Of a DNA stretch of 56,661 nt, positions 17,615 through 37,000 are shown in pieces. The DNA is taken from positions 1-56,661 of IMG/VR virus record IMGVR_UViG_3300025131_000044. One strand, 5' to 3'. This DNA is from a virus. Taxonomy: Duplodnaviria > Caudoviricetes. Within the stretch, counting starts at the first letter, position 1; each line of letters begins with the position of its first letter. Both the position numbers and the translations under genes were made by a program. The notes under the pieces were generated by a model. It worked only from the letters and a program-made list of their open reading frames with translations, ran no database searches and was not told where the DNA came from.

Positions 17615-17974
17615 TTAGTTTTCTCCTCAAGTATTAACTTGCTCGTTTTGTTTTGTTTTAACTACATAAAAAAATACACAATTATCCCTAAGGATTTAAA
17701 ATAACATCTATAGTAACTTGGGGATTTTAGAGTCGAGAACCGATTCTATTTTTGTGTATTTTCTTTATATAATTTCTTGTAACCATTTTATATAAGTATA
17801 AAAGTATCCTATAAAACCATCATTTTTTTATTATGATGTCTATAACTCCTTTATTATAATCTATTAAAATTTTTATTTAAAGTAATTTCTAAGTATTCCT
17901 ATAAAACAAAATTAATAAAACCACTATTATTAACCATGTTAAGTCTTCCATAGTGATACTCCGATTATATGTTG

Positions 17975-18274
17975 TGGAGATGGCGGGAGTCGAACCCGCG
18001 TCCTAACAGTTTCAATATAAAGTCATTCACAAGTTTAGTTGATTTCTTTCCTATCAACAAAGTCCGTATTCTTAAATTGTTTTACATCCAATTATGATTT
18101 ACCAATCACGATGGTTCTTTCCGATTATGACACCACCTTATCTTCTATCGGAGTCAAAGGGTGATGAACCTACGCGTTACGCGTAGGCTATTTGTGTATT
18201 ATAATTGTCAGTTAACAATTATGAGTTACTTGCACTCCATATTAAAGGTCTACTAGTCGAAACCAAGCATCCCC
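17975..18274 (-). ncRNA. ssrA: tmRNA (one-piece, about 300 nt), tag (A)DNYNTQIAYA*
   Basis: 5' GGGGATG...TTCGAC pairs with 3' CATCTCC-A including the G3:U alanine determinant; T-arm GCGGGTTCGACTCCCGC; tag ORF 18209-18177 after TAACT, with TAA in the loop of CCTACGCG/CGCGTAGG. Confidence 0.93.
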
Positions 18275-33633: not shown

Positions 33634-33881
33634 TACGAATCTCTCTTAGACATAAAATCAGCAAATAAAAAAATCAGTAACAATAGTATTACTGATATAC
33701 CTATTGATATACCTATTGATATACTTAATCTTATCCACAATACATATTCTAAAAAACTTGACAATACATATATCATATAAGTAATACCTATAGGACTCAT
33801 AATCATAACGAATTTCTCAATGTAACTCATACCAGAAAAGAAAGGCACTTTTTTAGATGTATCGTTATGTCTTTTTATCAT
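33630..33881 (-). CDS. Small membrane protein
   Basis: Two hydrophobic helices, AGGAG RBS. Confidence 0.65.
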   Translation of the reverse strand: MIKRHNDTSKKVPFFSGMSYIEKFVMIMSPIGITYMIYVLSSFLEYVLWIRLSISIGISIGISVILLLLIFLFADFMSKRDSY

Positions 33882-34884: not shown

Positions 34885-36081
34885 CTAACTCGCTGACTCA
34901 GCCGCCTCTGCCATCTCTTCTTCATTAAATAAATCATCAGTTGACCCATCATCACAGAACTTCTGGACAATCTGCTTCACAAAAGTTCTCTCAGAGTCAA
35001 CACCACCAGTAGCGTCATACTGTGGATAGATACTAACCTCACTAGCCTCTTCTAATGAGAAGCCATCAAATAATAGTCCACACAATTCAACAGTTGTTCT
35101 TGTGGAAATACCACTACTAATCCTAGCAGTTTCACTATTAGACTCTGTTCTAGTTAATGTCGCTATCTTAGCCACACTACTAATAACACCACTATCGACA
35201 TTAGGAAACATATATGTAAGTAAGGAGTTTTCGTCTTCCTCTGATAGTATGTCCATCTCTACTATAGTGAATCTATCCATTAGAGCCTTATCCATCACTC
35301 TTGTTGATGTATACTCATTTCCAATGTTTGCAGTTGCTACGAAAGTAACACCATCAGCTACTTTAATAGTCTTCTGTTCATTCTGTTCATCTAACCTCAA
35401 GTATCTCTGACCATAGTCTAATACTGTCATTAAGATGTTCCAAGCATCTGGATGCGCTCTAGATAACTCATCTAGTAGTATCACTGCATTTGGAGTCTGG
35501 ATAGCTTTAACAAAAAGGGACTCAGAGAAATAAGTACCACTTTCACTATTAAAGTGAGTGTTACCGATTAAAGTAGCTCGTGGGTCTTGAGTCGCACCTA
35601 AGTTAAAGTAGTAGTCAGGTCTATCTAAAGCATTAACACAACACTTCGCTGCCATTGTCTTACCACAACCAGCAGCTCCTGTCATCATTATATTCTTACC
35701 TCGAACAGCAGACCTAACAAGGTATTTCCACTTCAATTCTTTCATCATCAAACCCTTAGGCTTTAGACTATATGAAGAATGTATAAAATTTAAAACCTCT
35801 TGATGCCCAGTGGGAACATCAACAGTAGGGGTAGAAGTAGTCTTATCTTCTGAAACTATGTTTGCAGTATCAAATAGAGAAGCATCTACTAGTGTTAAGC
35901 CACCATCAGTGGTAACTGCGATACATTGACCAGTATCAAAAGCTTTTTGACGAAGTGGTTTGGGAATGAACTTCGCAGGAACTTTGTTTCCAGTCCTGTC
36001 GAAAGCTGTGTATATAGTTGACATCTTGCCGAAGAGATTCTTCTCTGACGATTCAACCCTAAATATATTTTTGTAATTCAT
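34885..36081 (-). CDS. MoxR/CobS/NorQ-like AAA+ ATPase
   Basis: GAAGCGKT (Walker A), ILLDELSRA (Walker B), FVATANIGNEY, DKALMDRF. Confidence 0.92.
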   Translation of the reverse strand: MNYKNIFRVESSEKNLFGKMSTIYTAFDRTGNKVPAKFIPKPLRQKAFDTGQCIAVTTDGGLTLVDASLFDTANIVSEDKTTSTPTVDVPTGHQEVLNFIHSSYSLKPKGLMMKELKWKYLVRSAVRGKNIMMTGAAGCGKTMAAKCCVNALDRPDYYFNLGATQDPRATLIGNTHFNSESGTYFSESLFVKAIQTPNAVILLDELSRAHPDAWNILMTVLDYGQRYLRLDEQNEQKTIKVADGVTFVATANIGNEYTSTRVMDKALMDRFTIVEMDILSEEDENSLLTYMFPNVDSGVISSVAKIATLTRTESNSETARISSGISTRTTVELCGLLFDGFSLEEASEVSIYPQYDATGGVDSERTFVKQIVQKFCDDGSTDDLFNEEEMAEAAESAS

Positions 36082-36115
36082 AAAAACTCCTTTTTATCAT
36101 TTTTTCTTACATTAT

Positions 36116-36181
36116 AATATAAGGAAGAAAACCCATATAAGTCAAGCTTTTTCTTAGAAAAAATTGTAACAATATGTAACA
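36116..36181 (-). promoter_or_regulatory. Early promoter with upstream TGTAACA-N3-TGTAACA direct repeat
   Basis: TTGACT-N18-TATATT; repeats at 36165-36171 and 36175-36181. Confidence 0.8.
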
Positions 36182-36204
36182 AGAGTTAAAGTCCAATACA
36201 TTAT

Positions 36205-36378
36205 ATAAAGCAGACCCCGCGAGAAAGGAGTAATGAAAAACGCGGGGCCTACATAGTGTACATACACTATTTATCTGTAACCATTAAAATCGTGAGGAGA
36301 GAACCGGGAGGGACTGAACTATTATACCATACACCCGGAGGGAATCGTGGTACAAGTTAAGTATGCCGGTTGCTCTCA
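36205..36378 (-). ncRNA. Candidate multi-hairpin small RNA with anti-Shine-Dalgarno loops
   Basis: GC-rich, three hairpins, CCCTCC twice, and loop TTTTTCATTACTCCTTTCT on a 12-bp stem. Confidence 0.5.
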
Positions 36379-36382
36379 GTTC

Positions 36383-36490
36383 TTATTCTACAAAATCATC
36401 AAAATCAAACTCTTCTATACTGTTCTCTATAGAGGCCAATTCTTCATCAGTAGGCTCTATATCTATTTTATCATTTGGGTCAAATATCAT
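36383..36490 (-). CDS. 35-aa highly acidic peptide
   Basis: MIFDPNDKIDIEPTDEELASIENSIEEFDFDDFVE; AAGGA RBS. Confidence 0.6.
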   Translation of the reverse strand: MIFDPNDKIDIEPTDEELASIENSIEEFDFDDFVE

Positions 36491-36499
36491 ATACTTTCC

Positions 36500-36598
36500 T
36501 TATTTACAAAATTTCATATCTATCCAGGCCCATAGTGCTATACCTAGAAAGAAGTAAGTTACCCAAGCAAACGGATTCAAAACAAAAAATTCATACAT
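36500..36598 (-). CDS. 32-aa membrane peptide
   Basis: MYEFFVLNPFAWVTYFFLGIALWAWIDMKFCK; AGGGAG RBS right after an early promoter. Confidence 0.6.
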   Translation of the reverse strand: MYEFFVLNPFAWVTYFFLGIALWAWIDMKFCK

Positions 36599-36625
36599 AA
36601 AAACTCCCTTTTTTAATTACACTAT

Positions 36626-36858
36626 AATATACGACGCTTTAGCTATATAAGTCAAGCTTTTTTTTCAATTATTTTAACTTTTTTTACTCTTTTGGCCGGC
36701 CATGCTAGGGTAACCGGCTCTCTATATAATATACGACGCTTTTACCATACAAGTCAAGTAAAATCGGCAAATATATCATAACTATTTTGTAACATTCTTG
36801 GGCCCCGCGGTATCCAGCCCACTATATAATATACACACGCTTACCCATATAAATCAAG
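36626..36858 (-). promoter_or_regulatory. Three tandem early promoters at about 100-bp spacing
   Basis: TATATT at 36626, 36728, 36828, each 18 nt from TTGACT/TTGACT/TTGATT. Confidence 0.8.
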
Positions 36859-37000
36859 TCTTTTATGTGTTTATTTATAGCAAAAATCTTTTTTCTTGAT
36901 ATGTATGTGTAGTATATTGCTATCCCCCAAATACATTATATCCTTGTCGGCAAACACTCCATATAGTATCAAATCCCGTACATTCCAGGGAAAGGTATAA

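What the first reader, a model, noticed from the sequence alone, without database searches (positions are those of the whole stretch)
36205..36378. Candidate early small RNA whose loop is a perfect antisense copy of a translation-start site
Seen: a GC-rich non-coding island lies directly 3' of two early micro-ORFs. On the transcribed (minus) strand a 12-bp stem GUAGGCCCCGCG/CGCGGGGUCUGC presents the 19-nt loop UUUUUCAUUACUCCUUUCU, the exact complement of AGAAAGGAG-UA-AUG-AAA-AA (Shine-Dalgarno + start codon). The upstream hairpin (36297-36377) carries CCCUCC twice, followed by CUCUCCUC. Known: CU-rich loop sRNAs (cuckoo RNAs, RNAIII, RsaE) block ribosome-binding sites. Inference: a phage sRNA that silences host mRNAs, or re-times phage mRNAs, by occluding initiation sites. 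Alternative: on the plus strand the same bases form an RBS plus a 7-codon minigene (MKNAGPT) or GGA-rich CsrA decoys.
Basis: partly seen in the sequence, partly recalled or inferred. Interest (0 to 1): 0.8.

Follow-up and report, generated by a model that had tools for sequence, protein, structure and literature searches.

The report
Marine phage small RNA with anti-ribosome-site loops
This is a real, uncatalogued small RNA gene shared by a lineage of uncultured ocean phages; it holds out loops that copy the ribosome's mRNA-docking sequence and so probably blocks ribosome landing sites on messages, though no transcript or target has been seen.

Summary
On the minus strand, 36378-36203 folds as described (z -4.75; plus strand -2.39). 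It belongs to a conserved RNA family with 118 unique copies in viral and marine metagenome contigs, one copy per phage genome, and no Rfam 15 match.

The family has two parts:
- A 5' core (window 36378-36275) with a covarying helix P1 and an invariant internal loop CAU/CCCUC, followed by CUCUCCUCA.
- A terminator hairpin whose large loop always contains ACUCCUUU, while 86 different stems close it. This hairpin is present in 100 of 111 copies with enough flank.

G.U pairs, U-runs and adjacent promoters all place the RNA on the minus strand.

The anti-SD core is conserved. The anti-AUG part (CAU) occurs in this lineage only (1 of 101 loops), and the plus-strand minigene therefore also exists only here.

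Best reading (about 0.5): an SD-occluding RNA like LhrC or RNAIII. It matches best the AAAGGAGU sites of the phage's own GTTACA-box early genes. No RegA or RegB homologue was found in a 95%-complete relative. Expression and targets are unproven.

This scan had already noted the same family on other DNA (e1-5780550).

The parts
36626..36655 (-). sigma-70-type promoter-like site (TTGACT, 18 nt, TATATT). It is the nearest one upstream of the micro-ORFs and the RNA.
   Evidence: The same cassette recurs at 36757, 36857 and 36145. Use as a promoter is inferred.
36500..36598 (-). micro-ORF 1 (32 aa, hydrophobic), behind AAAGGGAGUUUUU-AUG
   Evidence: No Pfam match. Not conserved next to the RNA in relatives.
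36383..36490 (-). micro-ORF 2 (35 aa, acidic)
   Evidence: No Pfam match.
36275..36378 (-). Module 1, the conserved structured core. P1 pairs 36377-36366 with 36307-36297 and has one bulged base. The internal loop is CAU (36365-36363) opposite CCCUC (36312-36308). The variable hairpin P2 spans 36362-36313. The single-stranded tail CUCAC is at 36296-36292.
   Evidence: Covariance model R1 scores 74.0 bits, E 2.7e-17. Covariation. Single-sequence folding gives the same structure.
36253..36270 (-). Short middle hairpin (7 bp, loop AUGU). In 47 relatives this position holds a hairpin with a UUAUUCCUUUCU-type loop.
36210..36252 (-). Terminator-type hairpin: 12-bp stem with 2 G.U pairs, and a 19-nt loop at 36240-36222 that contains the family-invariant ACUCCUUU (36231-36224).
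36200..36209 (-). U-rich tail UUUAUAUAAU. It is weak here. In relatives there are at least 5 U in the 8 nt after the stem in 77 of 101.
36165..36180 (-). GTTACA-N4-GTTACA direct repeat just upstream of the next promoter. One of 3 such boxes in the window.
   Evidence: Also seen behind the RNA in most relatives.
36116..36145 (-). Promoter-like site of the downstream AAA+ (CobS-like) gene
34885..36081 (-). AAA+ ATPase (AAA_5; CobS-like). Its ribosome site AAAAAGGAGUUUUU-AUG contains the 8-nt complement of the loop. This is the conserved downstream neighbour of the RNA.

Best explanation
What it is. Window 36378-36203 (minus strand) is one copy of a conserved, single-copy small-RNA gene of an uncultured marine T4-like myovirus lineage. 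Here it forms the 3' end of the transcript that starts at the promoter-like site at 36655 and carries two micro-ORFs, or it is processed from that transcript. In some relatives it has its own promoter.

Anatomy. The RNA has a structured 5' core (module 1) followed by one or two hairpins. The large loops of these hairpins copy the last bases of a typical 16S rRNA 3' tail: CUCCUUU(CU), the anti-Shine-Dalgarno sequence, as recalled from knowledge. The last hairpin doubles as the intrinsic terminator.

Proposed mechanism (inferred, not shown). The exposed loops, and possibly the CCCUC and CUCAC stretches of the core, base-pair with extended Shine-Dalgarno sites (AAAGGAGU) of mRNAs. They compete with the 30S subunit and lower or re-time translation, as LhrC, RNAIII and RsaE do.

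Likely targets. The best-matching sites are the phage's own genes behind GTTACA-box early promoters: the CobS-like ATPase, the CobT-like VWA protein and the ParB-like protein. The RNA would then be a translational shut-off or timer for that early regulon, a role that RegA and RegB proteins play in T4.

Confidence by step. That this is a real, conserved RNA on the minus strand: about 0.95. That it acts by SD pairing: about 0.5. That the targets are the box-regulon mRNAs: about 0.3.
For: Family and structure:
- 7 of 11 loci found through the neighbouring ATPase alone carry the same element.
- A pattern scan added 5 viral contigs and 120 metagenome contigs. Together with the window and those 7 loci that is 132 copies, 118 of them unique.
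- Model R1 finds one copy in each of 5 relatives' genomes, one of them 95% complete.
- P1 is 96.3% paired in 99 distinct sequences, with 6 pairs changed on both sides in 208 cells. No shuffle of 500 reached this, and slid controls gave 34-48% paired.
- RNAalifold finds P1 unaided.

Loop:
- 100 of 111 copies with at least 150 nt of flank have a hairpin of 6 bp or more with CTCCTTT in the loop.
- There are 86 distinct 5' stems among 101 hairpins.
- Median stem length is 10 bp, against 5 bp with permuted partners.
- ACTCCTTT is invariant in a 73-sequence alignment.

Strand and transcript ends:
- 61 of 101 terminator stems contain G.U pairs, and there are 28 G.U pairs at one P1 position.
- 77 of 101 hairpins are followed by a U-run.
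- A consensus -10 box lies 6-22 nt before module 1 in 9 of 108 copies.

Rarity: the motif occurs once on the sense strand of the window, against 13 complements. In G001 the count is 3 against 8.

Targets:
- All 6 perfect 8-nt complements in the window sit at or near ribosome sites. They include all 3 GTTACA-box genes.
- Box genes rank 5, 10 and 15 of 78 in the window (p 0.012).
- Box genes rank 2, 5, 7, 43 and 44 of 184 in G001 (p 0.001).

No RegA or RegB family match in 5 relatives, with T4 as positive control.

Precedent: the terminator loop of LhrC binds an SD region (PMC4132741, passages read).
Against: - No transcript is shown. The only RNA run was oligo-dT, with depth about 3, and its contig crosses the terminator and the promoter. 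It may be DNA carry-over or read-through.
- The loop does not covary with the ribosome site of the downstream ATPase. The loop keeps ACUCC where that site reads GGAGA, GGAGC or GGAA.
- An anti-SD loop fits most strong SD sites, so the target ranks are weak evidence. The box-gene leaders are also duplicated cassettes, not independent observations.
- SD pairing does not explain the invariant CAU/CCCUC internal loop or the invariant GAGA/CUCUCCUCA of the core.
- The two modules occur apart. The core stands alone in front of a nucleotidase-like ORF in 7 unique copies and between two tRNAs in one copy. The hairpins occur without a detectable core in L016/L017.
- The U-tract in the window itself is weak.
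- The host is unknown, so its SD usage is unknown.
Confidence: 0.5

Rival explanations
1. Protein-binding or decoy RNA. The invariant core is a protein recognition site. The 16S-tail-like loops would then imitate the ribosome's 3' end to soak up a factor that acts on it, such as a nuclease, an rRNA-maturation enzyme or an S1-like pyrimidine binder, rather than pair with mRNA.
For: - Sequence is invariant where SD pairing would not need it: CAUACUU, CAGUCCCUC, and GAGA paired with CUCUC without any covariation in 99 sequences.
- The loops share 7-9 letters with a typical 16S 3' end (recalled).
- The core works as a separate unit, flanked by tRNAs in L261.
Against: - No partner protein has been identified.
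- The neighbouring VWA protein looks CobT-like, not Ro60-like.
- The exact complementarity of the loop to the phage's own AAAGGAGU sites is explained more simply by pairing.
Confidence: 0.2
2. Cis-acting element only. It would be a terminator or processing and stability structure at the end of the upstream unit. Its conserved loop would be a signal for regulated read-through into the CobS-like gene, or a leader element where it precedes an ORF.
For: - It sits in a constant position directly upstream of the box, promoter and ATPase gene in most relatives.
- In the variant lineage the core sits between the CobT-like gene and a nucleotidase-like ORF. Its tail provides that ORF's AAAGG ribosome site.
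- An RNA-run contig crosses the terminator (weak).
Against: - A plain terminator needs neither a 12-19-nt invariant loop nor a 100-nt covarying core.
- This loop is not used by other terminators. There is one sense-strand copy in the window and 3 ACTCCTTT in the 169-kb G001.
- 9 copies have their own promoter directly in front.
- 100 of 111 copies have no ORF behind the core.
Confidence: 0.15
3. Ligand-sensing core. Module 1 would be an aptamer whose small conserved internal loop binds a metabolite. Binding would control the downstream ORF in the variant lineage, or the availability of the anti-SD arms.
For: - It has the look of a small riboswitch: a covarying stem around an invariant internal loop.
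- 7 unique copies lie directly before a nucleotidase-like ORF.
- In some relatives it is chained behind a manA-like domain.
Against: - No expression platform is evident.
- Most copies precede no ORF.
- It matches no Rfam riboswitch model.
Confidence: 0.08
4. Plus-strand readings from the first reader: an RBS plus the 7-codon minigene MKNAGPT, or GGA-loop CsrA decoys.
For: The plus strand of the loop reads AGAAAGGAGUAAUGAAAAA, and the hairpin would also form on that strand.
Against: - The ATG exists only in this lineage: 1 of 101 loops carries CAU.
- The plus-strand fold is weaker, z -2.39.
- G.U pairs become A-C mismatches on plus.
- U-runs and promoters fit the minus strand only.
- The flanking genes all lie on the minus strand.
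Confidence: 0.02

Closest known systems
LhrC sRNAs of Listeria monocytogenes (PMC4132741; passages read)
   Same: A small RNA with a redundant CU-rich motif (CUCCC...UUUU) in a hairpin loop, in a single-stranded stretch and in the terminator loop. Each copy can bind the SD region of lapB mRNA.
   Different: LhrC is bacterial, multicopy and stress-induced, and its motif is UCCC. Here the RNA is phage-encoded and single-copy. Its motif is ACUCCUUU, an extended anti-SD. It also has a separate 100-nt covarying core that LhrC lacks. There is no sequence or Rfam relationship.
C-rich-loop SD blockers of Firmicutes: RNAIII, RsaE, SprD (S. aureus) and FsrA/RoxS (B. subtilis). Named in the LhrC paper's passages; RoxS seen only in search listings.
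   Same: Unpaired pyrimidine-rich loops pair with SD sequences and block initiation.
   Different: Those are host regulators of metabolism or virulence. No homology to them was found. Binding and repression are untested here.
Terminator-loop-dependent regulation by SdsR, RseX and ArrS in E. coli (PMC11979758; abstract and section headings seen)
   Same: The loop of the sRNA's own intrinsic terminator is the functional element.
   Different: By that paper's section heading, the action is likely without base-pairing and needs Hfq and RNase E. Here the loop is a clear anti-SD complement.
T4 RegA (PF01818) and RegB (PF10715) (roles recalled from knowledge)
   Same: The proposed role: shutting off translation of early mRNAs at their ribosome sites. 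RegB cuts within GGAG.
   Different: Those are proteins. Neither family was found in 5 relatives' genomes, including a 95%-complete one, while T4 scored 247 and 230 bits. The analogy is an inference.
manA RNA (Rfam RF01745; PMC2864571 passages; cryo-EM preprint 10.64898/2026.07.01.735769 passages)
   Same: A marine-phage structured RNA. In relative L012 a sub-threshold manA-like domain (34.7 bits against a cut-off of 55.2, E 3e-7) lies 77 nt upstream of module 1 on the same strand.
   Different: It is a neighbouring module, not this RNA. The window has no manA match.
T4 small stable RNAs rnaC and rnaD
   Same: Stable non-coding RNAs of a T4-type phage that sit among tRNA genes. One family member here (L261) is flanked by tRNAs.
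   Different: There is no similarity. The best R1 hit in the T4 region scores 12.6 bits and lies elsewhere.

Membership tests
CU/C-rich-loop, SD-blocking trans sRNAs (LhrC / RNAIII / RsaE type; a functional class) | A discrete small non-coding transcript with its own terminator, and a promoter or processing site | tested here: inconclusive
   By sequence only. A U-run follows the last hairpin in 77 of 101 copies. A -10 box lies 6-22 nt upstream in 9 of 108 copies. In the window the nearest promoter is 250 nt upstream and the U-run is weak. No RNA data are available.
CU/C-rich-loop, SD-blocking trans sRNAs (LhrC / RNAIII / RsaE type; a functional class) | Two or more unpaired pyrimidine-rich motifs in loops or linkers, conserved while the stems vary | tested here: met
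   ACUCCUUU sits in the terminator loop in 100 of 111 copies, with 86 distinct stems. A second UCCUUU loop is present in 47 copies. CCCUC and CUCA are invariant.
CU/C-rich-loop, SD-blocking trans sRNAs (LhrC / RNAIII / RsaE type; a functional class) | Complementarity to the SD region of target mRNAs | tested here: met
   There are 6 perfect 8-nt complements at or near ribosome sites in the window. Predicted duplexes are better than with shuffled sites: 12 against 2 at -12 kcal/mol or below in G001. The fit is generic and is not proof of targeting.
CU/C-rich-loop, SD-blocking trans sRNAs (LhrC / RNAIII / RsaE type; a functional class) | Demonstrated pairing and repression of translation | not testable with these tools
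   Needs gel shift, toeprinting and reporter assays.
Any Rfam 15 family (by homology) | A score at or above the family's gathering cut-off | tested here: not met
   In the whole window only tmRNA passes. For 36050-36900 at E up to 10, the best hit is CopA at 19.5 bits against a cut-off of 60. In 10 relatives' loci only tRNAs pass.
Intrinsic (Rho-independent) terminator | A G+C-rich stem, a short loop, then a U-run | tested here: inconclusive
   The stem is met (12 bp). The loop is far larger than the 3-8 nt that the scan allows, so the scan reported only an inner 5-pair version. The U-run is strong in relatives (77 of 101) but reads UUUAUAU in the window.
Riboswitch / cis-regulatory leader | A conserved aptamer consistently in the 5' UTR of an ORF, with an expression platform | tested here: not met
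   Only 7 unique copies of 111 directly precede an ORF. 100 of 111 are followed by ORF-less hairpins.
manA RNA (RF01745) | A match to the covariance model | tested here: not met
   No match in the window. The sub-threshold match in relative L012 is a separate upstream module.

The most novel reading that the evidence does not exclude
The RNA could be a modular phage 'anti-ribosome-site' device rather than an ordinary sRNA. In this reading, hairpins that mimic the 16S tail are the working ends. They are tethered to an exchangeable sensing or scaffolding domain. That domain is the invariant CAU/CCCUC core here and a manA-like domain in some relatives. By a 2026 preprint, manA RNAs self-assemble into cages of 10 to 60 subunits. 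Such an assembly would sequester strong-SD messages multivalently or conditionally, and would give these phages an RNA-only switch of early translation in place of RegA and RegB.
Probability: 0.15. Interest if true: 0.9.

Novelty: new variant of a known kind. Interest (0 to 1): 0.7.

Why it matters
Virulent-phage small RNAs with a known job are few, and none that I found in print belongs to marine T4-like phages. The searches were made; paper supplements were closed. It is supported by covariation and has a clear, testable hypothesis: a trans-acting copy of the ribosome's anti-SD that tunes translation of the phage's own early regulon. If true, it would show an RNA solution to the early-gene shut-off that T4 solves with proteins. 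It would also add a new structured core of unknown partner to the list of orphan phage RNAs.

Tried and rejected
- Phage-collection DNA search of 35900-36900: no match. Protein search with the ATPase: no close cultured relative. The best hits were an uncultured phage and Microcystis phage Mel-JY01 at about 51-52% identity.
None of the 120 matched model R1 at E up to 0.01, so I treat all as chance. This gave no host clue.
- Two of the 14 viral pattern hits (L026, L033) lie in coding-looking sequence and have no R1 hit. I dropped them.
- RNA evidence: of 24 runs, one is RNA (oligo-dT), holding 0.05 of the sampled words. Its contigs have depth about 3, are under 95% alike, and one spans 36140-36287 across the terminator and promoter. 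This is uninformative for expression, ends or strand.
- Ro60/Y-RNA idea (RNA next to a VWA protein): the 740-aa protein has no Pfam, NCBIfam or PDB sequence match. By the Atlas it looks like CobT-type VWA proteins. Idea dropped; no fold was run.
- T4 rnaC/rnaD kinship: none.
- Pairing of the loop with the phage tmRNA: no complementary site in it.
- Covariation between the loop and the downstream gene's ribosome site: none seen in 66 pairs.
- Early, late and other gene classes in G001 by simple promoter patterns: only 7 early and 4 late genes were classed, too few to use.
- Single best predicted target in the window (gene at 33881, -17.2 kcal/mol, many G.U pairs): treated as a possible chance hit among 87 sites.
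- A column-wise pair count on the terminator alignment A3 was not attempted, because loop lengths shift the register. A per-sequence stem measure with permuted partners was used instead.
- Literature: no paper on this RNA in five searches. Supplements were closed and may list such motifs.
Full report
**What is in the window**

Genes around the finding all run on the minus strand. Read 5' to 3' on that strand, the order is as follows:
- three tandem sigma-70-type promoter-like cassettes, with -35 boxes at 36857, 36757 and 36655
- two micro-ORFs (36598-36500 and 36490-36383)
- the flagged non-coding stretch, 36378-36203
- a GTTACA-N4-GTTACA direct repeat (36180-36165)
- another promoter cassette (36145-36116)
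- an AAA+ (AAA_5, CobS-like) ATPase gene (36081-34885)

The window is an IMG/VR virus record of 56.7 kb, estimated 31% complete. It has T4-type baseplate genes and a one-piece tmRNA.

The minus strand of 36190-36395 folds into three elements:
- a long interrupted hairpin
- a 7-bp hairpin
- the 12-bp stem with the 19-nt loop UUUUUCAUUACUCCUUUCU

The energy is -62.6 kcal/mol against -45.5 +/- 3.6 for shuffles (z -4.75, 0 of 200). The plus strand gives z -2.39. The terminal stem has two G.U pairs that are mismatches on the plus strand.

CTCCTTT occurs once on the sense strand of the whole window, in this loop. Its complement AAAGGAG, the phage's usual extended Shine-Dalgarno, occurs 13 times there.

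No tRNA and no Rfam 15 family matches the stretch. Contigs of two other DNA runs reproduce it.

**It is a conserved RNA family**

Searching viral contigs with the downstream ATPase gave 12 loci. I read the upstream sequence of 11 of them:
- Seven (L008-L014) carry the same element in the same place.
- L016 and L017 carry the hairpins but only a degenerate core.
- L015 and L018 carry nothing recognisable.

A 17-letter pattern from the core found 14 viral stretches. Seven repeat the loci above. Five are new members (L020 and L024 alike, plus L023, L031, L032). Two are chance hits in coding sequence.

All of those tested match the covariance model: 88 metagenome loci among the 100 matches, and 19.

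By contrast, none of 120 prokaryote-genome pattern hits matches the model.

In total there are 132 copies, 118 of them unique. The model finds exactly one copy in each of five relatives' genomes, one of them 168.8 kb and 95% complete. The DNA runs that hold the window's stretch are labelled marine metagenomes.

**Module 1, the core (window 36378-36275)**

The 5' and 3' ends pair as P1: GAGAG with CUCUC, a bulged base, then six further pairs. P1 encloses an internal loop, CAU on the 5' side and CCCUC on the 3' side. Next comes a hairpin P2 that starts ACU.../...AGU and is otherwise variable in length (20-67 nt) and sequence. A single-stranded CUCAC and an A/U-rich linker follow; the linker often reads AAUUAAAUAGGUUA.

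On 12 sequences the structure is 96.4% paired with 5 compensatory pairs. On 99 distinct sequences:
- 96.3% of cells are paired.
- 6 pairs are changed on both sides, in 208 cells.
- 0 of 500 shuffles reach this.
- Paired cells fall to 34-48% when partners are slid.

RNAalifold predicts P1 on its own, and single-sequence folding recovers P1, the internal loop and P2 in nearly all members.

One caution applies. CAGTCCCTC, CTCTCC and, for the metagenome set, CATACTT were part of the search patterns, so their invariance is partly by ascertainment. However:
- They are also invariant in the 7 loci found through the protein alone.
- GAGA at the 5' end and UCA after CUCUCC were in no pattern, and are invariant in 97-100 of 100 sequences.

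**The hairpins**

Of 111 unique copies with at least 150 nt of downstream sequence, 100 have a hairpin with a stem of 6 bp or more and CTCCTTT in its loop. Further counts:
- There are 86 different 5' stems among 101 such hairpins.
- The commonest loops are UUUUACUCCUUUCU (18), UUUAACUCCUUUC (14) and UUUACUCCUUUU (12).
- 77 of 101 are followed by at least 5 U in 8 nt.
- 47 copies have a second hairpin, nearly always upstream (45 of 47). Its loop is of the type UUAUUCCUUUCU.

Real stems have a median of 10 bp, and 95 of 101 reach 8 bp. With permuted partners the median is 5 bp and 16% reach 8 bp. 61 of 101 stems contain G.U pairs. In a 73-sequence alignment ACTCCTTT is the only invariant block.

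The window's 19-nt loop is unique: 1 of 101 loops carries the extra letters that create CAU. The closest relative (L008, ATPase 87% identical) has the 14-nt loop UUUUACUCCUUUCU.

The conserved feature is therefore an anti-SD, not an anti-start-site.

The loops share CUCCUUU(CU) or UCCUUUCU with the 3' end of a typical bacterial 16S rRNA. That comparison is recalled from knowledge, not tested against the unknown host.

**Transcription unit**

In 9 of 108 copies with enough upstream sequence, a consensus -10 box ends 6-22 nt before the core. In L031 and L237 the sequence reads TATATT-ATATAT-AGAGA... In these phages the RNA is a stand-alone gene running promoter, core, hairpin(s), U-run.

Elsewhere the core follows other units:
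- ORFs, as in the window and L013.
- tRNAs, in L261, where a tRNA ends directly before AGAGAC and the next tRNA starts 6 nt after CUCUCCUCAC.
- Other structured modules. In L012 this is a sub-threshold manA-like domain 77 nt upstream (34.7 bits, E 3e-7).

The modules are separable:
- In a variant lineage (7 unique copies) the core alone sits between the stop of the CobT-like gene and a nucleotidase-like ORF. The core's tail supplies the AAAGG of that ORF's ribosome site.
- In L016/L017 the two CU-loop hairpins follow a tRNA-Glu without a detectable core.

**How it most likely works**

The exposed, invariant ACUCCUUU is the exact complement of AAAGGAGU. In the window that 8-mer occurs six times on sense transcripts, each at or near a ribosome site. 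These include all three genes behind GTTACA boxes: the CobS-like ATPase, the CobT-like VWA protein (named by Atlas look-alikes only) and a ParB-like protein.

With RNAduplex the box genes rank as follows:
- 5, 10 and 15 of 78 in the window (one-sided Mann-Whitney p 0.012)
- 2, 5, 7, 43 and 44 of 184 in the near-complete relative G001 (p 0.001)

In G001 the RNA island itself lies behind one of the seven boxes.

Real ribosome sites pair better with the loop than shuffled ones: 12 against 2 at -12 kcal/mol or below.

Neither RegA (PF01818) nor RegB (PF10715) is detectable in five relatives' genomes, whereas T4 scores 247 and 230 bits.

I therefore propose an SD-occluding RNA that tunes or shuts off the phage's own early box regulon. 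The architecture, with redundant CU motifs in a loop, a linker and the terminator loop, is that of Listeria LhrC, where each site binds the lapB SD region (PMC4132741).

Every step after 'the loop is complementary' is inference.

**What speaks against it**

- There is no transcript evidence.
- The loop does not covary with the ATPase ribosome site. Where that site reads GGAGA, GGAGC or GGAA, the loop still reads ACUCC.
- Any anti-SD fits most strong SD sites. The box-gene leaders are also duplicated cassettes, so the rank tests are not independent observations.
- The strict invariance of the core's internal loop and of GAGA/CUCUCCUCA is not explained by SD pairing. It suggests a protein, a ligand or a tertiary contact.

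I therefore keep a protein-binding or decoy reading (0.2), a purely cis reading (0.15) and a ligand-sensing core (0.08) as rivals. The plus-strand minigene and CsrA-decoy readings are contradicted (0.02).

**Relation to earlier notes of this scan**

A look-up by sequence with the relative L012 showed that the scan had already described this family on other DNA.
- e1-5780550 reads: 'Modular phage RNA with manA-like domain ... core at the back whose hairpin loops imitate the ribosome's anti-Shine-Dalgarno sequence'. I confirmed its manA lead.
- e1-6025673 mentions an uncatalogued last module common in ocean metagenomes.
- Several other notes report CU-loop RNAs in other marine phages. I did not test those.

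All of these are unchecked AI notes. They are not independent support.

**Novelty and verdict**

This is a real RNA family that is absent from Rfam 15. I found it in no paper in the held library (supplements closed). It is abundant in marine viral sequence.

Its likely mode of action is a known kind, SD occlusion by CU-rich loops. The setting is new in four ways:
- a virulent T4-like marine phage
- a terminator loop that copies the 16S tail
- a separate invariant core
- modular chaining with other RNAs

I rate it a new variant of a known kind, with interest 0.7.

Noticed in passing
window 17972-18274 (-): A one-piece tmRNA gene with predicted tag DNYNTQIAYA. It scores 105.6 bits against the Rfam tmRNA model. 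A paper on marine myophages says most marine phage tmRNAs are two-piece (PMC9004378 passages), so a one-piece gene here is unusual.
   Followed up: partly
window 36620-36860 (-): Three promoter cassettes about 100 bp apart. The first two are followed at once by short G+C-rich hairpins and no ORF.
   Followed up: no
window 36180-36165, 30772-30757, 26134-26119 (-); G001 at seven + strand sites: GTTACA-N4-GTTACA direct repeats just upstream of the -35 box of the CobS-like, ParB-like and CobT-like genes. They look like the operator of an unknown regulator. In the relative G001 there are 7 boxes, and one precedes the RNA island.
   Followed up: partly
L012:2423-2632 (+), relative of the window: A sub-threshold manA-like RNA domain (34.7 bits, cut-off 55.2, E 3e-7) directly upstream of the family core. 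L009, L011 and L032 show a similar long module by eye.
   Followed up: partly
L010, L014 (twice), L016, L023 upstream of the core: A further repeated module of about 75 nt of the form UUGCGG...AAGAGAGA...GGGGCAGUUCC...CCGCUC, seen by eye. It has no Rfam match at gathering cut-offs.
   Followed up: no
L163, L185, L240, L246 downstream of the core: Another large unassigned structured insert between the core and the terminator hairpin, starting UUGCCCGACUAAAGACG... It was seen by eye only.
   Followed up: no
L024, L195, L220, L225, L227, L263, L231: A variant lineage. The core alone lies between the CobT-like gene and a nucleotidase-like ORF (MRIGIDCDGVLRD...). In two of these loci a DnaK-like gene follows (MAKTIGIDLGTTNSCV...).
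   Followed up: partly
window about 21690-21650 (-): A second sense-strand CU-rich site, CAUACUCCUCUCUGAUUUUUUG, behind an imperfect hairpin.
   Followed up: no
L008:2600-2720 (+): tRNA-like T-arm sequences (GGTTCGACTCC, GGTTCGATTCC) just upstream of the core. ARAGORN calls no tRNA there. They may be tRNA remnants or mimics.
   Followed up: no
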